Assembly: GCF_044324785.1 (NCBI RefSeq)
Contig: NZ_CP172127.1
Length of the DNA: 64,000 nucleotides
Direction: 5' to 3' (one strand)
Source: Escherichia coli
GTDB lineage: Bacteria > Pseudomonadota > Gammaproteobacteria > Enterobacterales > Enterobacteriaceae
The translations under genes were made by a program, and so were the position numbers. The notes under the pieces are model-generated. The model was not told the DNA's origin. It was given only the letters and a program-made list of their open reading frames with translations, and did not search any database. Shown here in pieces: positions 4,526 through 44,172 of this stretch (position 1 is its first letter; the number at the start of each line of letters is the position of its first letter).

Positions 4526-4825
4526 AAAAATTCCTTAATACTGATAACTTGGCGCACTATACACACGTTCCTGAAGAAAGCTATAGTTTTTTGATGGGGT
4601 TGAAGATGGCTGGATGTCTAAAATAAACATTGCTTCATATGTTCAACTATGCGTTAATGATTGCGTCGGTTTGAAGAACAGACGATATACGAAGTAGTTT
4701 ACTAAAGCAGTTCTCATTTCAGGTGTTATTCACTTATTCCTTCTTTGAGTCTCTCCAATTAAGTACGAAGTCGTTTCTGTTATGCAAACCATTTATGCCG
4801 AAAGGCTCAAGTTAAGGAATGTAGA

Positions 4826-5041
4826 ATGTCAAATAAAATGACTGGTTTAGTAAAATGGTTTAACGCTGATAAAGGTTTCGGCTTTATTTCTCCTGTTGAT
4901 GGTAGTAAAGATGTGTTTGTGCATTTTTCTGCGATTCAGAATGATAATTATCGAACCTTATTTGAAGGTCAAAAGGTTACCTTCTCTATAGAGAGTGGTG
5001 CTAAAGGTCCTGCAGCAGCAAATGTCATCATTACTGATTAA
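4826..5041 (+). CDS. cspB: Cold-shock protein CspA family
   Basis: 71-aa [26 protein letters not shown]...; RNP1/RNP2 motifs; long AT-rich 5' leader. Confidence 0.95.
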
Positions 5042-5322
5042 AATTCATCGCTCGTCTGTATACGATAACGAAGAAGGCTGATGCCTGAGTAGAGATACGG
5101 ACAGAGTAGTGAATATTGGATCTCTTTAATAAAAAGTAAGGAGGTCCAATACATGAAACAATGGCTAGCATATTTGGCAAAATCTTAATCAGGAAAAGTA
5201 TGCTAACCATTGTGGTGAAGTGCAGGTTTGCTGCATGAATAGTTTTACAGCAGAAGCTAACTGCTGGCATGGCAAAACAAAGTGCGTAAGTGGATGACTC
5301 CCACAAAAAGCACCACAATCTC

Positions 5323-7350: not shown

Positions 7351-7713
7351 GGTAATATTAAATCGGAACATTTACATCGCGGAATGTAAAATTTAAATAA
7401 AAAGGACTCTTCCATGAGCCAAAATTCCTGAAATCTTAAGGGTAAGATAAAAGGTCTTAATCAGAATGACACGTTATTATTAATAAATAAAGCTATTCTT
7501 TCATTGCTGTGTTTTTCTTTACAAAAGTAATCCTTGCTATGGGTGGTTAATCATGCGTTAATGGTGTTCTGGTTTGTTACAAATTTATCTGAAGCAGTCA
7601 TTGTTATAATTTTATTATTTGTACCTCTTGAGATTTCCTTGTTGGTTTTTCTCTCTGATATTTTTTTTCGGACCATTCTGCCCAAGGGCTAATTTCTTCA
7701 AAAGGTAATAATT

Positions 7714-7926
7714 ATGTCTAACAAAATGACTGGTTTAGTGAAATGGTTTAACCCTGAAAAAGGTTTTGGTTTCATCACGCCGAAAGATGGCAGCAAAGAT
7801 GTGTTTGTCCATTTCTCAGCAATTCAGAGCAACGATTTCAAAACATTAACTGAGAATCAGGAAGTTGAATTTGGTATTGAGAACGGACCTAAAGGTCCTG
7901 CCGCTGTTCATGTAGTGGCGCTTTGA
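7714..7926 (+). CDS. cspI: Cold-shock protein CspA family
   Basis: 70-aa [26 protein letters not shown]...; long 5' leader. Confidence 0.95.
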
Positions 7927-8014
7927 GGTAGACAATATTACAAACCATATTCACTTTAGATGCCCGTGTTGTCATGGTTCCCAGTATAGAACATCATCTT
8001 TTGATGTTTCTGAC

Positions 8015-22942: not shown

Positions 22943-23268
22943 AGACCTTCCGCTGGAAAGTGAAACCCGGTATGGATGTGGCTTCGGCCCCTTCCGTCAG
23001 GAAAGTGCGCTTTGGTGATGGCTATTCCCAGCGAGCGCCTGCCGGGCTGAATGCCGACCTGAAAACGTACAGCGTGACGCTTTCTGTTCCCCGTTGGGAG
23101 GCCACGGCGCTGGAGTCGTTTCTGGCTGAGCACGGGGGCTGGAAAGCCTTTCTGTGGACGCCGCCTTATGAGTGGCGGCAGATAAAGGTGACCTGCGCAA
23201 AATGGTCGTCGCGGGTCAGTATGCTGCGTGTTGAGTTCAGCGCAGAGTTTGAACAGGTGGTGAACTGA
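22939..23268 (+). CDS. M: Tail tip protein gpM
   Basis: 109 aa MKTFRWKVKPGMDVASAPS... Confidence 0.9.
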   Translation: MKTFRWKVKPGMDVASAPSVRKVRFGDGYSQRAPAGLNADLKTYSVTLSVPRWEATALESFLAEHGGWKAFLWTPPYEWRQIKVTCAKWSSRVSMLRVEFSAEFEQVVN

Positions 23269-23966
23269 TGCAGGATATCCGGCAGGAAACACTGAATGAA
23301 TGCACCCGTGCGGAGCAGTCGGCCAGCGTGGTGCTCTGGGAAATCGACCTGACAGAGGTCGGTGGAGAACGTTATTTTTTCTGTAATGAGCAGAACGAAA
23401 AAGGTGAGCCGGTCACCTGGCAGGGGCGACAGTATCAGCCGTATCCCATTCAGGGGAGTGGTTTTGAACTGAATGGCAAAGGCACCAGTACGCGCCCCAC
23501 ACTGACGGTTTCTAACCTGTACGGTATGGTCACCGGGATGGCGGAAGATCTGCAGAGTCTGGTCGGTGGAACGGTGGTCCGGCGTAAGGTTTACGCCCGT
23601 TTTCTGGATGCGGTGAACTTCGTCAACGGAAACAGTGGCGCCGATCCGGAGCAGGAGGTGATCAGCCGCTGGCGCATTGAGCAGTGCAGCGAACTGAGCG
23701 CGGTGAGTGCCTCTTTTGTACTGTCCACGCCGACGGAAACGGATGGCGCTGTTTTTCCGGGACGTATCATGCTGGCCAACACCTGCACCTGGACCTATCG
23801 CGGTGACGAGTGCGGTTATAGCGGTCCGGCTGTCGCGGATGAATATGACCAGCCAACGTCCGATATCACGAAGGATAAATGCAGCAAATGCCTGAGCGGT
23901 TGTAAGTTCCGCAATAACGTCGGCAACTTTGGCGGCTTCCTTTCCATTAACAAACTTTCGCAGTAA
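23268..23966 (+). CDS. L: Tail tip protein gpL (C-terminal Cys cluster)
   Basis: 232 aa; C-terminal CxxC...C...C cluster (CTWTYRGDECGY...CSKCLSGC). Confidence 0.9.
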   Translation: MQDIRQETLNECTRAEQSASVVLWEIDLTEVGGERYFFCNEQNEKGEPVTWQGRQYQPYPIQGSGFELNGKGTSTRPTLTVSNLYGMVTGMAEDLQSLVGGTVVRRKVYARFLDAVNFVNGNSGADPEQEVISRWRIEQCSELSAVSASFVLSTPTETDGAVFPGRIMLANTCTWTYRGDECGYSGPAVADEYDQPTSDITKDKCSKCLSGCKFRNNVGNFGGFLSINKLSQ

Positions 23967-24715: not shown

Positions 24716-25284
24716 AAACGGGGGCTGAAGCCATCCGGGCACTGGCCACACAGCTCCCGGCGTTTCGTCAGAAACTGAGCGACGGCTGGTATCAGGTACG
24801 GATTGCCGGGCGGGACGTCAGCACGTCCGGGTTAACGGCGCAGTTACATGAGACTCTGCCTGATGGCGCTGTGATTCATATTGTTCCCAGAGTCGCCGGG
24901 GCCAAGTCAGGTGGCGTATTCCAGATTGTCCTGGGGGCTGCCGCCATTGCCGGATCATTCTTTACCGCCGGAGCCACCCTTGCAGCATGGGGGGCAGCCA
25001 TTGGGGCCGGTGGTATGACCGGCATCCTGTTTTCTCTCGGTGCCAGTATGGTGCTCGGTGGTGTGGCGCAGATGCTGGCACCGAAAGCCAGAACTCCCCG
25101 TACACAGACAACGGATAACGGTAAGCAGAACACCTATTTCTCCTCACTGGATAACATGGTTGCCCAGGGCAATGTTCTGCCTGTTCTGTACGGGGAAATG
25201 CGCGTGGGGTCACGCGTGGTTTCTCAGGAGATCAGCACGGCAGACGAAGGGGACGGTGGTCAGGTTGTGGTGATTGGTCGCTGA
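24613..25284 (+). CDS. I: Tail tip assembly protein gpI
   Basis: 223 aa MAATHTLPLASPGMARICLYGDLQRFGRR...; Gly/Ala-rich hydrophobic C-half. Confidence 0.85.
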   Translation: MAATHTLPLASPGMARICLYGDLQRFGRRIDLRVKTGAEAIRALATQLPAFRQKLSDGWYQVRIAGRDVSTSGLTAQLHETLPDGAVIHIVPRVAGAKSGGVFQIVLGAAAIAGSFFTAGATLAAWGAAIGAGGMTGILFSLGASMVLGGVAQMLAPKARTPRTQTTDNGKQNTYFSSLDNMVAQGNVLPVLYGEMRVGSRVVSQEISTADEGDGGQVVVIGR

Positions 25285-25344
25285 TGCAAAATGTTTTATG
25301 TGAAACCGCCTGCGGGCGGTTTTGTCGTTTATGGAGCGTGAGGA

Positions 25345-28300
25345 ATGGGTAAAGGAAGCAGTAAGGGGCATACCCCGCGCGAAGCGAAGGACAACCTGAA
25401 GTCCACGCAGTTGCTGAGTGTGATTGATGCCATCAGTGAAGGGCCGATTGAAGGTCCGGTGGATGGATTAAAAAGCGTGCTGCTGAACAGTACGCCGGTG
25501 CTGGACAGTGATGGGAATACCAACATCGCCGGTGTCACGGTGGTGTTCCGGGCTGGTGAGCAGGAGCAGACTCCGCCGGAGGGATTTGAATCCTCCGGCT
25601 CCGAGACGGTGTTGGGTACGGAAGTGAAATACGACACGCCGATCACCCGCGCCATCACGTCGGCAAACATCGACCGACTGCGCTTTACCTTCGGTGTGCA
25701 GGCACTGGTGGAAACCACCTCAAAGGGGGACCGGAATCCGTCGGAAGTTCGCCTGCTGGTTCAGATACAGCGTAATGGTGGCTGGGTGACGGAAAAAGAC
25801 ATCACCATTAAGGGCAAAACCACCTCGCAGTATCTGGCCTCGGTGGTGGTGGATAACCTGCCGCCGCGCCCGTTTAATATCCGGATGCGCAGAATGACGC
25901 CGGACAGCACCACAGACCAGCTGCAGAACAAAACGCTCTGGTCGTCATACACCGAAATCATCGATGTGAAACAGTGCTACCCGAACACGGCACTGGTCGG
26001 CGTGCAGGTGGACTCGGAACAGTTCGGCAGCCAGCAGGTGAGCCGTAATTATCATCTTCGCGGGCGCATTCTGCAGGTGCCGTCGAACTATAACCCGCAG
26101 ACGCGGCAATACAGCGGTATCTGGGACGGAACGTTTAAGCCAGCATACAGCAACAACATGGCCTGGTGTCTGTGGGATATGCTGACCCATCCGCGCTACG
26201 GCATGGGGAAGCGTCTCGGTGCGGCGGATGTGGACAAATGGGCGCTGTATGTCATCGGCCAGAATTGCGACCAGTCGGTGCCGGATGGCTTTGGTGGCAC
26301 GGAGCCGCGCATCACCTGTAATGCCTGGCTGACCACACAGCGCAAGGCGTGGGATGTTCTCAGTGATTTCTGCTCGGCGATGCGCTGTATGCCGGTATGG
26401 AACGGGCAGACGCTGACGTTCGTGCAGGACCGACCGTCGGATAAGGTGTGGACCTATAACTGCAGTAATGTGGTGATGCCGGATGATGGCGCGCCGTTCC
26501 GCTACAGCTTCAGTGCCCTGAAGGACCGTCATAATGCCGTTGAGGTGAACTGGATTGACCCGGATAACGGCTGGGAGACGGCGACAGAGCTTGTTGAAGA
26601 TACGCAGGCCATTCTCCGTTACGGTCGTAACGTCACGAAGATGGATGCCTTTGGCTGTACCAGCCGGGGGCAGGCGCACCGCGCCGGGCTGTGGTTGATT
26701 AAAACGGAACTACTGGAAACGCAGACCGTGGACTTCAGCGTGGGGGCGGAAGGGCTTCGCCATGTGCCGGGCGATGTCATTGAAATCTGCGATGATGACT
26801 ATGCGGGGATCAGCACCGGCGGGCGCGTGCTGGCGGTGAACAGCCAGACCCGGACGCTGACGCTCGACCGTGAAATCACGCTGCCATCCTCCGGTACCAC
26901 GCTGATAAGCCTGGTTGACGGAAGTGGCAATCCGGTCAGCGTGGAGGTCCAGTCCGTCACCGACGGCGTGAAGGTAAAAGTGAGCCGTGTTCCTGACGGC
27001 GTTGCCGGATACAGCGTATGGGGGCTGAAGCTGCCGACGCTGCGCCAGCGCCTGTTCCGCTGCGTGAGTATCCGTGAGAACGACGACGGCACGTATGCCA
27101 TCACCGCCGTGCAGCATGTACCGGAAAAAGAAGCTATCGTGGATAACGGGGCGCACTTTGACGGCGACCAGAGCGGCACGGTGAATGGTGTCACGCCGCC
27201 AGCAGTGCAGCACCTGACTGCCGAAGTCACCGCAGACAGCGGGGAGTATCAGGTACTGGCCCGCTGGGACACGCCGAAGGTGGTGAAGGGCGTGAGTTTC
27301 ATGCTTCGCCTGACCGTAACAGCGGATGACGGCAGTGAGCGGCTGGTCAGCACGGCCCGGACGACGGAAACCACTTACCGCTTCACACAACTGGCTCTGG
27401 GGAACTACAGGCTGACAGTCCGGGCAGTAAATGCGTGGGGGCAGCAGGGCGATCCGGCGTCGGTATCGTTCCGGATTGCCGCACCGGCAGCGCCGTCGCG
27501 GATTGAGCTGACGCCGGGCTATTTTCAGATAACCGCCACGCCGCATCTTGCGGTTTATGATCCGACGGTACAGTTTGAGTTCTGGTTCTCGGAAAAGCGG
27601 ATTGCGGATATCAGGCAGGTTGAAACCAGCGCGCGTTATCTTGGTACGGCACTGTACTGGATAGCCGCCAGTATCAATATCAAACCGGGCCATGATTATT
27701 ATTTTTACGTTCGCAGTGTGAACACCGTTGGCAAATCGGCATTCGTGGAGGCTGTCGGTCAGCCGAGTGATGATGCATCAGGCTATCTGGATTTTTTCAA
27801 AGGCGAGATAGGGAAAACCCATCTGGCTCAGGAGCTGTGGACGCAGATTGATAACGGTCAGCTTGCGCCTGACCTGACTGAAATCAGGACGTCCATAACG
27901 GATGTCAGCAATGAAATAACACAGACCGTCAATAAGAAACTGGAAGACCAGAGTGCAGCGATCCAGCAGATACAGAAGGTTCAGGTTGATACAAATAATA
28001 ACCTGAACAGCATGTGGGCAGTGAAGCTGCAGCAGATGCAGGACGGACGCCTTTATATTGCGGGTATCGGTGCCGGTATTGAGAACACCCCTGACGGCAT
28101 GCAGAGTCAGGTGCTGCTGGCGGCGGACAGGATTGCGATGATTAATCCTGCAAATGGCAACACAAAACCGATGTTTGTTGGTCAGGGTGATCAGATATTC
28201 ATGAATGACGTGTTCCTGAAACGCCTGACGGCTCCCACCATTACCAGCGGTGGAAATCCGCCGGCATTTTCCCTGACACCGGACGGAAAGCTGACCGCTA

Positions 28301-28842
28301 AAAATGCGGATATCAGTGGCAGTGTGAATGCGAACGCCGGGACGCTCAACAATGTCACGGTAAATGAAAACTGTACGATTAAGGGCATGCTGGAGGCGAC
28401 TCAGGTCAGAGGTGACTTCGTTAAAGCTGTATCCAAATCATTCCCGAAACAGGCTGGTACGTGGGGTAATACGGAAACACCAAACGGGACGGTTACAGTC
28501 ACCATCAGCGATGATCATAACTTTGACCGTCAAATCATTATTCCGCCCATTATCTTTAACGGAATAGCGTATAGCGATCCGGGAAGTGGTAATAACCCGG
28601 GAGGTACAAGATACACGGGTTATGGTTTTGAAGTTCGCAAAAACGGCGTATTAATCGCATCCAGAGAAACTAAAGGGGCCATTCCCGGTAGTTACAGTGC
28701 AGTTATTGATATGCCGAGTGGCAGGGGAAGCGTCACTCTGGAGTTTAAGATTTTCCAGAAAGGCAATCAGGGGGCAGGCAATATCACCGACTGTACGGTG
28801 ATTGTGACCAAAAAAGCCGCTTCCGGCATCAGTATTCGTTGA
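25345..28842 (+). CDS. J: Central tail fiber / host specificity protein gpJ
   Basis: 1165-aa ORF; N-terminal and central regions lambda J-like; C-terminal region appears divergent. Confidence 0.95.
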
Positions 28843-28863
28843 AATATTTATAACCCCAATAAA

Positions 28864-28889
28864 GGGCGTCAGGAATGACGCCTTTTTTA
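28864..28889 (+). terminator. Intrinsic terminator after J
   Basis: Hairpin GGGCGTCA-GGAA-TGACGCCT followed by T-run. Confidence 0.5.
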
Positions 28890-28912
28890 TTGCAGAAAAG
28901 CGAGAGGTAATT

Positions 28913-29512
28913 ATGCGTAAAGTTTGTGCAGCAATTTTGTCCGCAGCCATTTGTCTGGCCGTATCCGGTGCGCCTGCATGGGCGTCTGAACATCAGTCCA
29001 CGCTGAGCGCGGGGTATCTTCATGCCTCGACGAACGTCCCCGGCAGTGATGATCTGAACGGGATTAACGTGAAATACCGTTATGAGTTTACGGACACACT
29101 GGGGCTGGTGACGTCATTCAGCTATGCAGGAGACAAGAATCGCCAGCTGACCCGTTACAGCGATACCCGCTGGCATGAAGATTCCGTTCGTAACCGCTGG
29201 TTCAGCGTAATGGCGGGGCCGTCTGTGCGCGTGAATGAATGGTTCAGCGCGTATGCGATGGCGGGTGTGGCTTACAGCCGTGTGTCGACTTTCTCCGGGG
29301 ATTATCTTCGCGTAACTGACAACAAGGGGAAAAAGCACGATGTGCTGACCGGAAGTGATGACGGTCGCCACAGCAACACGTCTCTGGCGTGGGGGGCTGG
29401 CGTGCAGTTTAACCCGACCGAATCCGTGGCCATTGATATTGCTTATGAAGGCTCCGGCAGTGGTGACTGGCGCACTGACGGTTTCATCGTGGGTGTCGGT
29501 TATAAATTCTGA
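28913..29512 (+). CDS. lom: Lom/Ail/PagC-family outer-membrane beta-barrel protein
   Basis: 199 aa with signal peptide; conserved C-terminus ...DIAYEGSGSGDWRTDGFIVGVGYKF. Confidence 0.9.
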   Translation: MRKVCAAILSAAICLAVSGAPAWASEHQSTLSAGYLHASTNVPGSDDLNGINVKYRYEFTDTLGLVTSFSYAGDKNRQLTRYSDTRWHEDSVRNRWFSVMAGPSVRVNEWFSAYAMAGVAYSRVSTFSGDYLRVTDNKGKKHDVLTGSDDGRHSNTSLAWGAGVQFNPTESVAIDIAYEGSGSGDWRTDGFIVGVGYKF

Positions 29513-29538
29513 TTAGCCAGGTAACACAGTGTTATGAC

Positions 29539-29566
29539 AGCCCGCCGGTTCAGGTGGGCTTTTTTG
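29539..29566 (+). terminator. Possible intrinsic terminator after lom
   Basis: Imperfect hairpin AGCCCGCC...GGTGGGCT followed by TTTTTTG. Confidence 0.4.
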
Positions 29567-29576
29567 TGGGGTGAAT

Positions 29577-32405
29577 ATGGCAGTAAAGATTTCAGGTGTA
29601 CTGAAAGACGGCACAGGAAAACCGGTACAGAACTGCACAATCCAGCTGAAAGCAAAACGTAACAGCACCACGGTGGTGGTAAACACGCTGGCCTCAGAAA
29701 ATCCGGATGAAGCCGGGCGTTACAGCATGGACGTTGAGTACGGGCAGTACAGCGTTATTCTGTTGGTGGAGGGATTCCCGCCGTCACATGCCGGGACCAT
29801 CACCGTGTATGAAGATTCCCGACCCGGTACGCTGAATGATTTTCTCGGTGCCATGACGGAGGATGATGCCCGTCCTGAGGCACTGCGCCGTTTTGAACTG
29901 ATGGTGGAAGAGGTGGCGCGTAACGCGTCCGCGGTGGCACAGAACACGGCAGCCGCGAAGAAGTCAGCCAGCGATGCCGGCACATCAGCACGTGAGGCGG
30001 CAACCCATGCGACTGATGCTGCAGGCTCAGCACGCGCAGCCAGCACGTCAGCCGGACAGGCCGCGTCGTCGGCTCAGTCAGCATCTTCCAGCGCAGGAAC
30101 GGCATCAACAAAGGCCAGTGAAGCATCGAAAAGTGCTGCTGCTGCAGAGTCCTCAAAAAGCGCGGCAGCTACCAGTGCCGCTGCGGCGAAAACGTCAGAA
30201 ACGAATGCGGCAGCGTCACAACAATCAGCAGCCACTTCTGCATCCGCCGCGACCACGAAGGCGTCAGAAGCTGCCACCTCAGCCCGGGATGCGGCGGCCT
30301 CAAAAGAGGCGGCAAAATCATCAGAAACGAGCGCAGCCTCGAGCGCCAGTAGTGCAGCCTCCTCGGCAACAGCGGCAGGAAATTCCGCGAAGGCGGCAAA
30401 AACGTCCGAGACGAACGCTAAGTCTTCTGAGACGGCAGCAGCACAGAGTGCCTCCGCAGCAGCAGACTCAAAAACAGCGGCTGCCTCATCTGCCAGCGCC
30501 GCGTCAACAAATGCCGGGCAGGCCTCAGCCAGTGCCACCGCCGCCGGAAAATCGGCAGAAAGTGCTGCATCGTCCGCTTCAACAGCCACAACGAAGGCTG
30601 GCGAAGCCGCTGTACAGGCCAGCGCAGCAGCGAGGTCTGCTTCCGCAGCGAAGACATCCGAGACGAACGCGAAAGCGTCGGAAACCAGCGCAGAATCCTC
30701 AAAAACGGCTGCCGCATCGTCCGCCAGTTCGGCGGCGTCATCGGCATCATCTGCGTCTGCTTCAAAAGATGAGGCGACCAGACAAGCGTCCGCAGCGAAG
30801 GGCAGCGCCACGACAGCATCCACGAAGGCGACAGAGGCAGCTGGCAGTGCGACGGCGGCAGCACAGAGCAAAAGTACGGCGGAATCCGCGGCAACGCGCG
30901 CCGAGACAGCGGCAAAACGGGCAGAGGATATTGCATCCGCCGTGGCGCTTGAGGATGCGAGCACGACGAAAAAGGGGATAGTACAGCTCAGCAGTGCGAC
31001 CAACAGCACTTCCGAGTCACAGGCGGCAACGCCAAAAGCCGTTAAGGCCGCGTATGACCTGGCTAACGGGAAATACACCGCACAGGACGCTACGACAGCA
31101 CAAAAAGGAATTGTCCAGCTCAGTAGTGCAACCAACAGCACATCTGAAACGCTTGCTGCGACACCGAAAGCAGTGAAAGCAGCTAATGACAATGCGAATG
31201 GTCGGGTACCTTCTGCCCGTAAGGTGAATGGTAAGGCGCTTTCAGCGGATATAACACTGACGCCGAAAGATATTGGTACGCTTAACTCAACAACAATGTC
31301 ATTCAGCGGTGGTACTGGTTGGTTCAAATTAGCAACGGTAACCATGCCACAGGCGAGTTCTGTTGTTTCAATTACGTTGATTGGTGGCGCTGGATTTAAC
31401 GTGGGGTCACCTCAACAGGCAGGTATATCTGAACTTGTTTTACGTGCAGGTAATGGTAATCCGAAGGGGATTACTGGTGCTTTATGGCAGCGCACATCGA
31501 CAGGGTTTACAAATTTTGCCTGGGTCAATACATCTGGTGATACTTACGATATTTACGTTGCAATCGGAAATTATGCGACTGGTGTAAATATTCAATGGGA
31601 TTATACCAGTAATGCCAGCGTGACGATTCATACGTCACCAGCATATTCTGCTAATAAGCCGGAAGGGTTAACGGACGGTACAGTTTATTCACTCTATACG
31701 CCATCAGAGCAGTTTTATCCGCCTGGCGCACCAATCCCGTGGCCATCAGATACCGTTCCGTCTGGCTATGCCCTGATGCAGGGGCAGACTTTTGACAAAT
31801 CTGCATACCCGAAACTTGCAGCCGCTTATCCGTCAGGCGTGATCCCTGATATGCGTGGCTGGACGATTAAGGGCAAACCTGCCAGTGGTCGGGCCGTATT
31901 GTCTCAGGAACAGGACGGCATTAAATCGCATACCCACAGCGCCAGCGCATCCAGTACGGATTTGGGGACGAAAACCACATCGTCGTTTGATTACGGCACT
32001 AAATCCACGAATAACACTGGTGCGCATACCCATAGTTTAAGTGGCAGCACGAATGCAGCTGGTAATCACAGCCATAGAGATGGCCGTCGATTTAACCCCA
32101 GTGTTTTTAAAGATACTTATCAATATGGTTATACAAGCTCAGGTCAAAATACCTGGGGTGTACAAGGCTCAGTAGGTATGTCTACGGGGTGGTTAGCGAA
32201 TACCAGTACAGATGGTAATCATAGCCATTCACTGTCCGGCACAGCAGCATCTGCAGGTGCACACGCGCATACTGTCGGTATTGGTGCTCATACGCACTCC
32301 GTTGCGATTGGTTCACATGGACACACCATCACCGTTAACGCTGCTGGTAACGCGGAAAACACCGTCAAAAACATCGCATTTAACTATATTGTGAGGCTTG
32401 CATAA
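29577..32405 (+). CDS. stf: Side tail fiber protein Stf
   Basis: ORF 29571-32405; start at [12 protein letters not shown]; Ala/Ser-rich repeat block, duplicated phage tail-fiber repeat ([15 protein letters not shown]...[10 protein letters not shown]), His-rich HxH C-terminal motifs. Confidence 0.9.
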
Positions 32406-32980
32406 TGGCATTCAGAATGAGTGAACAACCACGGACCATAAAAATTTATAATCTGCTGGCCGGAACTAATGAATTTATTGGTGAAGGTGACGCATATATT
32501 CCGCCTCATACAGGTCTGCCAGCAAACAGTACCGATATTGCACCACCAGATATTCCTGCTGGCTTTGTGGCTGTTTTCAACAGTGATAAGGCATCGTGGC
32601 ATCTCGTTGAAGACCATCGGGGTAAAACGGTTTATGACGTAGCGTCAGGGGACGCGTTATTTATTTCTGAACTCGGTCCGTTACCGGAAAATGTTACCTG
32701 GTTATCGCCGGAAGGGGAGTTTCAGAAGTGGAACGGCACAGCCTGGGTGAAAGATGCAGAAGCAGAAAAACTGTTCCGGATCCGAGAGGCGGAAGAAACA
32801 AAAAACAGCCTGATGCAGGTAGCCAGTGAGCATATTGCGCCACTTCAGGATGCTGTAGATCTGGAAATCGCAACGGAGGAAGAAACCTCATTGCTGGAAG
32901 CCTGGAAAAAGTATCGGGTGTTGCTGAACCGTGTTGATACGTCAACTGCACAGGATATTGAATGGCCAGCACTGCCGTAG
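32405..32980 (+). CDS. tfa: Tail fiber assembly protein Tfa
   Basis: 191 aa [24 protein letters not shown]...; ATG overlaps stf stop (TAATG). Confidence 0.9.
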
Positions 32981-33077: not shown

Positions 33078-33668
33078 TTATATGTCAGGTGTCTGAAGTT
33101 TTGCTTTGGCTCTTAAAATGGTTTGCCGCGAGGTTTTGAATTCCCGGGCAATGGCACTTATACTTACACCTGACTTAATTCGTTCGAATACCACCTGTTT
33201 CTGTTCTTCATTTAACACAGGTGGTCGACCAAAACGTTTCCCTGCGCCGCGGGCTCTTACTATCCCGGAATGAGTGCGTTCAAGTAAAAGGTCTCGTTCA
33301 AATTCAGCGACTGCTGAAATTACGTGCATCATCATTTTTCCTGTTGGACTGGTCAGGTCAATGCCCCCCAATGCTAAGCAATGCACTCTGATACCTGTTT
33401 CGGTCAGTTGTTCCACTGTTTTCCTGATATCCATTGCATTACAACCAAGGCGATCCAGTTTTGTCACAATCAATTGATCACCACATTTCAGGCGAGCAAG
33501 CAACCGGTTAAAACCAGGACGCTCACTGGTTGCTGCTGAGCCGCTAATGTGTTCTTCGATTATTTGCTGAGGTTTGATTTTAAAACCTGCACTTTCGATT
33601 TCCCGGCGTTGATTTTCGATGGTCTGATCCAGCGTTGATATCCGACAGTAAGCAAAAATTCGAGACAT
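33078..33668 (-). CDS. pin: Pin/Gin/Hin-family serine DNA invertase
   Basis: 196 aa [20 protein letters not shown]... with catalytic Ser in the N-terminal motif and C-terminal HTH. Confidence 0.9.
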
Positions 33669-43858: not shown

Positions 43859-43975
43859 GCTCCGTTTAACATTCATTGAGAAAACTGATGCTACTGTGTC
43901 AACGATCCGTTATCAGTGCAGGAAAATGCCTGTTAGCGTAAAAGCAAAACACAAATCTATCCATGCAAGCATTCA

Positions 43976-44001
43976 CCGCCGGTTTACTGGCGGTTTTTTT
44001 T
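43976..44001 (+). terminator. Intrinsic terminator (plus strand) in dgcZ-mgtS intergenic region
   Basis: Hairpin CCGCCGG-TTTA-CTGGCGG followed by T8. Confidence 0.55.
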
Positions 44002-44007
44002 CGCCGT

Positions 44008-44049
44008 CATAAAAATCAGGCCCCTTGTACACAACTGTAACAAGGGGCC
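44008..44049 (-). terminator. Intrinsic terminator for mgtS (minus strand)
   Basis: 10-bp stem GGCCCCTTGT/ACAAGGGGCC followed on the minus strand by TGATTTTTAT. Confidence 0.55.
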
Positions 44050-44076
44050 GGTTAGGTGAGGGATTATCTCCGTTCA

Positions 44077-44172
44077 TTAGTCATCCCATTTGTGGCTGAA
44101 ATACGCGGCCAGAAAACCAGAAAATAAAATTATTCCCAGTACGGCCATAAAAACATTCATATTACCCAGCAT
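44077..44172 (-). CDS. mgtS: MgtS (YneM) 31-aa inner-membrane small protein
   Basis: Hand-translated MLGNMNVFMAVLGIILFSGFLAAYFSHKWDD; SD GGAGG upstream; below track cutoff. Confidence 0.8.
   Translation of the reverse strand: MLGNMNVFMAVLGIILFSGFLAAYFSHKWDD

What the first reader, a model, noticed from the sequence alone, without database searches (positions are those of the whole stretch)
28913..29512. Lom-family outer-membrane protein moron with a divergent N-terminal half
The C-terminal beta-strands match what I recall of the lambda Lom / Ail / PagC family, while the N-terminal two-thirds looks divergent. It sits in the classic lom position between J and stf and is flanked by terminators, suggesting independent lysogen-expressed cargo. 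Ail/Lom proteins mediate adhesion or serum resistance.
Basis: partly seen in the sequence, partly recalled or inferred. Interest (0 to 1): 0.3.

Follow-up and report, generated by a model that had tools for sequence, protein, structure and literature searches.

The report
Phage 434-type Lom outer-membrane gene
This is an ordinary, already annotated prophage gene for a small outer-membrane barrel protein (the phage-434 version of lambda's Lom); it always travels with OmpC-binding tail tips, which hints that it may shield the phage's own receptor.

Summary
The ORF at 28913..29512 is real. It encodes a full-length Ail/Lom-family protein (Pfam PF06316, 1-199 of 199, E 1e-122): a signal peptide followed by a confidently modelled eight-stranded beta-barrel.

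The protein is only 45% identical to lambda Lom, yet its last 27 residues are identical, because a recombination junction lies inside the 3' end of the gene.

The divergence is not new. This is the phage 434 allele (97% identical). It is 100% identical in many complete E. coli genomes, where RefSeq names it WP_001233090.1. It is far commoner than lambda's own allele.

The gene sits between J and stf in a Qin-type prophage. Both flanking terminators are real. Five relatives lack exactly RBS + lom + terminator (about 670 bp), the classic moron signature. The unit holds no promoter.

One lead came out of the work. PDB 9wso holds lambda Lom together with LamB, lambda's receptor. The window allele always accompanies the two OmpC-using J tips (149 of 149 loci). 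Masking of OmpC is therefore plausible but untested.

Verdict: already known, low interest.

The parts
25345..28842 (+). J, the central tail fibre / tip attachment protein (1165 aa). It is lambda-like up to about aa 833, then diverges.
   Evidence: ORF. 95.6% nt identity to lambda over 24840-27841, then 78% or no match. Matches the lambda J structures 8iyk and others.
28390..28839 (+). J C-terminal 150 aa, the receptor-binding tip. It is of phage 434 type, so OmpC use is inferred.
   Evidence: 94% identical to the phage 434 central tail fibre and 36% to lambda J. Phage 434 targets OmpC according to PMC12502783.
28861..28891 (+). Intrinsic terminator after J: stem 28865-28871 / 28876-28882, GGAA loop, then the T-run 28883-28888.
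   Evidence: -15.9 kcal/mol, z -5.2. 20 of 21 distinct variants keep the stem through compensatory changes. Annotated as a terminator in mEp460 and phage 434.
28892..29565 (+). The lom moron unit: 21-nt leader with RBS, lom, and its terminator. It is precisely absent in five relatives.
   Evidence: In L176, L178, L181, L226 and L251, window position 28891 is joined directly to 29560.
28904..28907 (+). Ribosome-binding site GAGG, 5 nt before the ATG.
   Evidence: Read from the sequence. The same element is annotated as an RBS in phage 434.
28913..29512 (+). lom (199 aa plus stop), an Ail/Lom-family outer-membrane beta-barrel protein of the 434-type allele.
   Evidence: Pfam PF06316 1-199/199, 407.7 bits. 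PHROG 108 'Lom outer membrane protein'. 100% identical in IAI1 and others. 97% identical to phage 434.
28913..28984 (+). Signal peptide MRKVCAAILSAAICLAVSGAPAWA, with predicted cleavage after AWA.
   Evidence: By inspection: n-, h- and c-regions with an A-x-A site. The model shows a helix at 2-18 and low confidence at 20-24, ahead of strand 1 at residue 29.
29129..29380 (+). Codons 73-156. They include the two long protruding hairpins (residues 73-96 and 121-156), which are the most diverged parts versus lambda Lom.
   Evidence: Model strands 63-81/86-106 and 111-135/141-166. Exposed parts are 22% identical to lambda Lom, versus 56% for the barrel and periplasmic side.
29385..29512 (+). The 3' end of lom, shared with lambda and with all Lom classes. 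It is the right-hand recombination junction. It encodes the last strands and the C-terminal ...GVGYKF.
   Evidence: Similarity to lambda resumes at 29385. The last 18 residues are identical in all three classes.
29539..29565 (+). Intrinsic terminator after lom: stem-loop 29539-29560, T-run 29560-29565.
   Evidence: -16.3 kcal/mol, z -3.2. Conserved in nearly all related loci. Annotated as a terminator in mEp460 and phage 434.
29577..32405 (+). stf, the side tail fibre. Its N-terminus is shared with lambda.
   Evidence: ORF. The ATG at 29577 matches the lambda and IAI1 starts.

Best explanation
Shown here:
- The gene encodes a Sec-exported, eight-stranded outer-membrane beta-barrel of the Ail/Lom family. 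It ends in the aromatic C-terminal signature typical of barrel proteins.
- It is the phage 434 allele of lom.
- It lies in a discrete, roughly 670-bp 'moron' unit (RBS, gene, terminator). The unit is inserted between the terminator that follows J and the leader of stf, in a Qin-type lambdoid prophage of E. coli.
- The unit has no promoter of its own. It is most simply transcribed as part of the late operon, whose Q-modified polymerase ignores the two terminators. At most a low level would be made in the lysogen.

Inferred mechanism:
- In the outer membrane, the two long protruding hairpins (residues about 73-96 and 121-156) engage the porin that the phage's own tail tip uses as receptor. Here that would be OmpC.
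- Binding lowers adsorption of kin phage to cells that already carry or are producing the phage.
- The lambda allele appears to do the same with LamB.
- This would be a receptor-masking, kin-exclusion function. It is analogous to T5 Llp and to Cor of phi80/N15, which act on FhuA (my own knowledge of those systems).
- A surface role in host-cell adhesion is not excluded and may coexist.

The confidence given (0.4) is for the inferred mechanism. The identity and anatomy are about 0.97 certain.
For: Identity and fold:
- Pfam match is full length, E 1e-122.
- AlphaFold model has pLDDT 93 with 8 strands.
- Best solved folds are Ail 3qra and OmpX 1qj9, TM 0.84-0.85 on the target.

Allele:
- 97% identical to phage 434 Lom.
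- 100% identical in E. coli IAI1 and many other genomes.

Moron unit: lom-less relatives have a precise junction at the two T-runs. The terminators are supported by energy and by covariation.

Mechanism for the lambda allele:
- Expressing Lom gives strong defence against lambda-vir but not T7.
- Lom expression rises sharply late in infection (PMC11888456 / PMC12366544).
- PDB entry 9wso contains both lambda Lom and maltoporin LamB.
- lom is dispensable for plaque formation.

Transfer to this allele:
- The exposed hairpins are only 22% identical to lambda Lom, against 56% for the barrel. The surface-exposed parts, the likely specificity region, are therefore what changed most.
- The window's J tip is 434-type, so OmpC.
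- The experimentally OmpC-dependent phage phi330 has a different tip (42% identical) but the same Lom allele.
- In loci sampled by tip, 72 of 72 loci with a 434-type tip and 77 of 77 with a phi330-type tip carry this Lom class whenever a Lom is present.
- The lambda-type tip pairs only with lambda-type Lom: 5 of 5 viral contigs and 21 of 21 phage records.

Selection within the class is purifying (pN/pS 0.14-0.25), so the protein is under functional constraint.
Against: - No experiment exists on this allele. All functional data concern lambda Lom (45% identical) or the 244-aa Lom of 933W/phi24B (32% identical).
- I could not read any paper for 9wso. The nature of the Lom-LamB contact is unknown to me.
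- The J tip and lom are 70 bp apart. Physical linkage and clonal sampling could produce the pairing without selection. Many of the loci come from closely related E. coli genomes. The lambda pair is effectively a single lineage.
- One tip cluster (77% identical to phi330's) carries two Lom classes: 43 of class 1 and 3 of window type.
- The receptors of that cluster and of the Jc2 tips are unknown.
- Five relatives have lost lom with no obvious consequence.
- According to the cited paper, lambda lysogens are not protected from lambda-vir at native Lom levels.
- PADLOC has no model that matches the protein.
Confidence: 0.4

Rival explanations
1. Classical view. Lom is a lysogenic-conversion factor. 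It is made by the prophage in the lysogen, and its exposed hairpins bind host-cell or serum components. It would then promote adhesion or complement resistance, as Ail, Rck and PagC do.
For: - Family membership and fold are shared with Ail and OmpX.
- Lambda Lom has been linked to adhesion to buccal epithelial cells (Vica Pacheco 1997, as cited).
- The Lom of phi24B is expressed in lysogen cultures at similar levels with or without induction.
- Sera against LomW of 933W reduce EHEC adherence and colonisation.
Against: - The Rck ('resistance to complement killing') and OmpX equivalog models score far below their cut-offs: 115 vs 258 bits and 99 vs 176 bits.
- No promoter was found, and there is none inside the moron unit.
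- The allele is found in phages that grow on K-12 (hosts listed), and the window is almost identical to the prophage of E. coli IAI1. It tracks the tail-tip type, not a pathotype.
- LomW and phi24B Lom are only 32% identical to this protein.
- Within-class selection is purifying, not diversifying.
Confidence: 0.3
2. Generic envelope effect. Lom is an abundant small barrel made late in infection. It alters outer-membrane composition or porin levels non-specifically, and so reduces adsorption of various phages without binding any particular receptor.
For: - The authors of the defence study raise indirect effects on receptor expression or the envelope as a possibility for the related barrel proteins.
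- One Lom class occurs with three or more different tip types.
Against: - Lambda Lom protected against lambda-vir but not T7, and OmpX and OmpA gave no defence.
- A deposited structure contains Lom together with LamB.
- Divergence between the classes is concentrated on the exposed hairpins.
Confidence: 0.15
3. A passenger with no current function. It is kept only because it sits between two recombination-prone conserved segments of the tail-fibre region.
For: - lom is dispensable for lambda growth.
- Five relatives have lost it precisely.
- The prophage region is a Qin-type element, which is defective in K-12 (Qin-type context; K-12 defectiveness from my own knowledge).
Against: - Selection is purifying across 89 distinct alleles (pN/pS 0.14-0.25).
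- The signal peptide, RBS and terminators are intact.
- Relatives occur in 4,695 of 5,426 complete E. coli genomes, with a median of 2 copies.
Confidence: 0.05

Closest known systems
Phage 434 gene 22 product (UMO75287.1, 'Ail/PagC/OmpX porin') and RefSeq WP_001233090.1 of E. coli IAI1
   Same: It is 97% identical to the 434 protein and 100% identical to the IAI1 protein. All are 199 aa long. All share the same slot between J and stf, the same two terminators, and the same 434-type J tip next door.
   Different: Nothing of substance. The window is another copy of this allele, in a Qin-type prophage at ydfJ.
Bacteriophage lambda Lom (NP_040601.1; PDB 9wso chain C)
   Same: Same family, fold and gene position. 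The last 27 residues are identical. The downstream terminator and the start of stf are shared.
   Different: Overall identity is only 45%, and 22% in the exposed hairpins. The first loop is 8 residues shorter. It is linked to a LamB-binding rather than an OmpC-binding tip. The functional data (adhesion, anti-lambda defence, the entry with LamB) exist only for the lambda allele.
Yersinia Ail (3qra), E. coli OmpX (1qj8/1qj9), Salmonella Rck/PagC
   Same: All are eight-stranded outer-membrane barrels within the reach of Pfam PF06316. Foldseek E-values are 2e-15 and 1e-14, with TM 0.84-0.85 on the target.
   Different: Identity is 29-32%. Lom has much longer protruding hairpins (199 aa versus about 150-170). 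The NCBIfam equivalog models for Rck and OmpX are not met. Those proteins are chromosomal or plasmid genes, not part of a phage tail-fibre cluster.
Lom of short-tailed Stx phages (933W 'LomW', phi24B Lom, 244 aa)
   Same: Same family, also prophage-borne. They are annotated or shown to be expressed in lysogens and have been used as a vaccine antigen.
   Different: Only 32% identical, with large insertions. They are not adjacent to a J-type tip. These phages use BamA as receptor.
Receptor-blocking proteins encoded next to receptor-binding genes: T5 Llp and Cor of phi80/N15/HK022, both acting on FhuA (my own knowledge, not tested here)
   Same: They share a proposed logic: an outer-membrane protein encoded beside the receptor-binding protein gene inactivates the phage's own receptor.
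   Different: Those are small lipoproteins, not beta-barrels, and there is no sequence or fold relation. For this Lom allele, the function is only inferred.

Membership tests
Ail/Lom family (Pfam PF06316) | Full-length match to the family profile, above the curated threshold. | tested here: met
   407.7 bits against a cut-off of 23, residues 1-199 on profile positions 1-199. PHROG 108 'Lom outer membrane protein', E 1e-110.
Ail/Lom family (Pfam PF06316) | Eight-stranded antiparallel beta-barrel fold. | tested here: met
   AlphaFold model with pLDDT 93 and pTM 0.80 shows eight strands. The top solved matches are Ail 3qra and OmpX 1qj9.
Ail/Lom family (Pfam PF06316) | An N-terminal signal peptide and a C-terminal aromatic residue, as expected for outer-membrane barrels. 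| tested here: met
   By inspection: MRK + hydrophobic core + AWA|SE, and the protein ends ...GVGYKF. No dedicated signal-peptide predictor was available.
Ail/Lom family (Pfam PF06316) | Localisation in the outer membrane. | not testable with these tools
   Needs cell fractionation or surface labelling.
Lambda Lom (same allele as lambda's) | High identity to lambda Lom along the whole length. | tested here: not met
   45% overall. Only the last 27 residues are identical. It is an orthologue by position but a different allele class.
Lambda Lom (same allele as lambda's) | Position between J and stf in a lambda-like tail gene cluster. | tested here: met
Rck/PagC and OmpX equivalogs (NCBIfam NF011777, NF006917) | Score above the curated equivalog cut-off. 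| tested here: not met
   115.4 bits against 258, and 98.9 bits against 176.
Moron (Hendrix/Juhala sense) | A discrete extra unit that is absent from otherwise collinear relatives. | tested here: met
   Five loci with the same J tip join window 28891 directly to 29560.
Moron (Hendrix/Juhala sense) | Its own terminator. | tested here: met
   Hairpin 29539-29560 plus T-run.
Moron (Hendrix/Juhala sense) | Its own promoter, giving expression from the repressed prophage. | tested here: not met
   No sigma-70-like site in 28500-29900. There are only 21 nt between the upstream T-run and the ATG inside the unit. A weak or non-consensus promoter in the 3' end of J cannot be excluded.
Receptor-masking / superinfection-exclusion outer-membrane proteins (works like Llp or Cor) | Encoded next to the receptor-binding protein gene. 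| tested here: met
   70 bp downstream of J.
Receptor-masking / superinfection-exclusion outer-membrane proteins (works like Llp or Cor) | The allele co-varies with the receptor used by the linked tip. | tested here: inconclusive
   The window-type Lom occurs with both OmpC-using tips (149 of 149 loci). The lambda Lom occurs only with the LamB tip. However, linkage and clonal sampling are not controlled, and one tip cluster carries two Lom classes.
Receptor-masking / superinfection-exclusion outer-membrane proteins (works like Llp or Cor) | Binds the receptor and lowers adsorption. | not testable with these tools
   There is only indirect support, and only for the lambda allele: PDB 9wso holds Lom and LamB, and Lom expression defends against lambda-vir.

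The most novel reading that the evidence does not exclude
Lom alleles form a receptor-specific code. Each class masks the porin that its linked J tip uses: the lambda type masks LamB, and the 434/window type masks OmpC. Selection, not only linkage, would then keep 'tail tip + lom' together as a key-and-lock-cover module. If so, Lom classes would define cross-exclusion groups among the many lambdoid prophages of E. coli. The 47-year-old question of what lom is for would have an answer that a simple reciprocal plating experiment can test.
Probability: 0.3. Interest if true: 0.6.

Novelty: already known. Interest (0 to 1): 0.2.

Why it matters
As a gene call it does not matter much. The protein is already in RefSeq and in the genome of phage 434, and relatives occur in most E. 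coli genomes.

The surrounding analysis gives a sharp, cheap prediction about a gene whose role has been unclear since 1979. If lambda Lom acts on LamB, then the far commoner 434-type Lom should act on OmpC. It should protect against OmpC-dependent lambdoid phages, including long-tailed Stx phages such as phi330, but not against lambda. That would bear on how co-resident prophages compete and on the spread of Stx phages.

Tried and rejected
1. I first expected near-identity to lambda Lom, from memory. The direct comparison rejected this. The sequence I remembered is the 434/common allele.
2. A sigma-70 promoter scan around lom found nothing.
3. PADLOC defence models gave no hit.
4. I asked whether PDB 9wso is a Lom-J complex. 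It is not: no J chain is in that entry. It holds LamB instead.
5. A strict one-to-one pairing of Lom class and J-tip class was rejected. At 70% clustering the classes reassort. At 90% the mapping is many tips to one Lom, with one mixed cluster.
6. I looked for ongoing diversifying selection on the exposed hairpins within the class. It was not seen (pN/pS 0.25 against 0.14).
7. The Rck and OmpX equivalog assignments were rejected on their cut-offs.
8. The Liu et al. 2013 ribosome-profiling paper and any paper for 9wso are not held. The expression statements are therefore second-hand.
9. I looked for an invertible tail-fibre segment for the neighbouring pinQ-like recombinase. No flanking inverted repeats were found.
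10. I did not run a fused-chain AlphaFold test of Lom with OmpC.

Full report
**What is there**

An ORF of 199 codons lies exactly at 28913..29512 on the + strand. A GAGG ribosome-binding site sits 5 nt before the ATG.

The Pfam Ail_Lom model PF06316 matches end to end: residues 1-199 on profile positions 1-199, 407.7 bits, E 1e-122. PHROG 108, 'Lom outer membrane protein', matches equally well. The NCBIfam equivalog models for Rck ('resistance to complement killing') and OmpX score well below their cut-offs, at 115 vs 258 bits and 99 vs 176 bits. The protein therefore belongs to the family but is not one of those proteins.

An AlphaFold model was built on 60 diverse relatives. It is confident, with pLDDT 93 and pTM 0.80. 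It shows a signal-peptide helix at 2-18 followed by eight strands: 29-40, 48-58, 63-81, 86-106, 111-135, 141-166, 172-181 and 188-198. The best solved folds are Yersinia Ail (3qra) and E. coli OmpX (1qj9), with TM 0.84-0.85 on the target.

By inspection, the N-terminus is a Sec signal peptide with an AWA|SE cleavage site. The protein ends ...GVGYKF, the aromatic C-terminus usual for outer-membrane barrels.

I expected near-identity to lambda Lom and was wrong. Against lambda's own Lom the protein is 45% identical.

- The last 27 residues are identical.
- The remaining ~172 residues are about 37% identical.
- The first exposed loop is 8 residues shorter.

I assumed the OmpX/Ail topology and assigned the ten residues of each strand next to the periplasmic turns to the membrane. 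This division is approximate. On it, the exposed parts are 22% identical to lambda Lom and the barrel and periplasmic side 56%.

At DNA level, similarity to lambda is 95.6% over 24840-27841 (gene I and J up to about aa 833). It falls to 78% and then disappears from 28398 to 29385, apart from one 59-bp patch. It resumes at 29385 and continues through the terminator into stf.

The unit that differs from lambda is therefore a cassette. It comprises the receptor-binding end of J, the spacer, and the first ~470 bp of lom. The right-hand junction lies inside lom.

**The divergence is not new**

- The same DNA is 96-99.8% identical in over 100 lambdoid and Stx phage records.
- The protein is 100% identical in an isolated phage.
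- The gene is 100% identical in many complete E. coli genomes.
- Relatives occur in 4,695 of 5,426 genomes, with a median of two copies and up to 13.
- Single 90%-identity clusters of this allele hold 24,859 and 6,993 member sequences. Sources name them 'Ail/Lom family outer membrane beta-barrel protein'.

The window is a Qin-type lambdoid prophage at ydfJ. It is 99.1% identical to that of E. coli IAI1, where the gene is WP_001233090.1.

Most tellingly, phage 434 carries a Lom that is 97% identical, and a J tip that is 94% identical, to the window's. Both sit in the same arrangement, with both terminators annotated. The window therefore has the phage 434 tip-plus-lom cassette.

Lambda's allele is the rare one. 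It occurs in 21 of 50,697 phage records, all lambda or lambda derivatives, and in 5 viral contigs. A third class of 207 aa, about 61-66% identical to lambda Lom, occurs mainly in Stx1a phages. The 244-aa Lom of 933W and phi24B is a fourth class, only 32% identical to the window's.

**Terminators and moron status**

- The hairpin after J (28861-28886, T-run 28883-28888) folds at -15.9 kcal/mol, z -5.2.
- The hairpin after lom (29539-29560, T-run 29560-29565) folds at -16.3 kcal/mol, z -3.2.
- Across related loci the upstream hairpin has 21 distinct sequences. Twenty of them keep a G+C-rich stem and T-run through paired changes. Examples are GGCGTCA/TGACGCC, GGCGCCA/TGGCGCC, GGCACCA/TGGTGCC and GGCACCTC/GAGGTGCC.

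Five viral contigs with the same 434-type J tip lack lom precisely. In them, window position 28891 is joined to 29560. A single terminator is followed directly by the stf leader.

So RBS + lom + terminator (28892..29565, about 670 bp) is a discrete insertion/deletion unit bounded by two T-runs. That is the moron signature.

The unit contains only 21 nt upstream of the ATG, and no sigma-70-like promoter was found in 28500-29900. The sequence therefore does not support 'independent' expression. The simplest reading is transcription with the late operon, whose antiterminated polymerase ignores both terminators. This agrees with the reported sharp rise of lambda Lom synthesis late in infection.

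The tail and head genes upstream are intact in the window.

**What it probably does**

The classical view is adhesion or serum resistance. It rests on family analogy and on one adhesion study of lambda Lom (cited).

Newer evidence for lambda Lom points elsewhere.

- Expressing it gives strong defence against lambda-vir but not T7, while OmpX and OmpA give none.
- lom is dispensable for plaque formation.
- PDB entry 9wso contains lambda Lom together with maltoporin LamB, lambda's receptor, in the same construct as the LamB-J complex 8xcj. It contains no J.

I could find no paper for 9wso, so the contact itself is unknown to me.

**Does Lom class follow the receptor of the neighbouring tip?**

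- In 154 viral contigs chosen by Lom, tips clustered at 70% reassort with the Lom classes.
- At 90% clustering, five of six tip clusters carry one Lom class only:
  - 434-type tip: 41 of 41 with the window-type Lom.
  - phi330-type tip: 17 of 17 with the window-type Lom.
  - Jc2 tip: 30 of 30 with the window-type Lom.
  - Lambda-type tip: 5 of 5 with lambda Lom.
  - A tip 78% identical to lambda's: 3 of 3 with class 1.
- The sixth cluster (77% identical to phi330's tip) is mixed: 43 with class 1 and 3 with the window type.
- phi330 was shown to need OmpC by knock-out and complementation. Its tip is only 42% identical to 434's, yet it carries the window-type Lom at 95.5%.
- Sampling by tip gave the same picture. 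Of 80 loci with a 434-type tip, 72 had the window-type Lom and none had another class. Five lacked lom and three were truncated. Of 80 loci with a phi330-type tip, 77 had the window-type Lom, none had another class, and three were truncated.

Two structurally different tips that both use OmpC therefore share this Lom. The LamB tip has its own.

This fits receptor masking, with the window allele directed at OmpC, but it does not prove it.

- The two genes are 70 bp apart.
- Many contigs come from closely related strains.
- The lambda pair is effectively one lineage.
- One tip cluster is mixed.
- The receptors of two tip types are unknown.

Within the window-type class selection is purifying (pN/pS 0.25 on the exposed parts, 0.14 on the barrel). 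This shows functional constraint but not what the function is.

**Verdict**

The finding is a correct identification of an ordinary, already annotated gene.

- The mosaic relation to lambda is real. It reflects lambda being the atypical reference.
- The moron reading is well supported, except for independent expression.
- The receptor-matching idea is a lead worth a simple experiment, not a result.

I rate the finding's interest as low (0.2). I give the receptor-code reading a probability of about 0.3.

Noticed in passing
window 28390-28839 (J C-terminus): The receptor-binding tip of J is of phage 434 type (94% identical; 36% to lambda). This prophage's particles, if made, should therefore use OmpC rather than LamB.
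   Followed up: yes
L176, L178, L181, L226, L251 (about 1950-2020 in each): Five viral contigs with the same J tip lack lom precisely. One terminator is followed directly by the stf leader, which defines the boundaries of the lom unit.
   Followed up: yes
PDB 9wso (external; seen): A deposited structure holds lambda Lom together with maltoporin LamB. It is absent from the fold library (entries released up to 2026-04-08), and no paper for it is held.
   Followed up: partly
L088 and about 50 other loci; Stx1a phage records: A third Lom class (207 aa, about 61-66% identical to lambda Lom) is common in Stx1a phages. It is linked mostly to a J tip 77% identical to phi330's. The receptor is unknown.
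   Followed up: partly
window 29900-31350 (inside stf): stf contains a long Ala/Ser/Thr-rich repetitive stretch. It produces a 423-aa ORF on the opposite strand (30074..31345), which is almost certainly an artefact. The window's stf is shorter than IAI1's (2829 vs 2961 nt).
   Followed up: no
window 33078-33668 (- strand): A PinQ-like serine recombinase lies next to tfa. No inverted repeats flank the tail-fibre end, so it looks like an orphan invertase with nothing to flip.
   Followed up: partly
window 23268-23966: The minor tail gene L is intact here (232 aa), whereas RefSeq marks it as frameshifted in the nearly identical IAI1 prophage.
   Followed up: no
window 32748-32946, 43870-44083, 4665-5057, 7568-7953: Rfam matches above the gathering scores: IS009 (inside tfa), the STnc560 Hfq-binding sRNA, and two cspA-type thermoregulator leaders in the cold-shock gene region of the prophage.
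   Followed up: no
phage record MW057783.1: A record named 'Campylobacter phage CJLB-4' (48,361 bp) carries a J tip and a Lom that are 100% identical to lambda's, at lambda-like coordinates. It looks like lambda DNA under another name.
   Followed up: no
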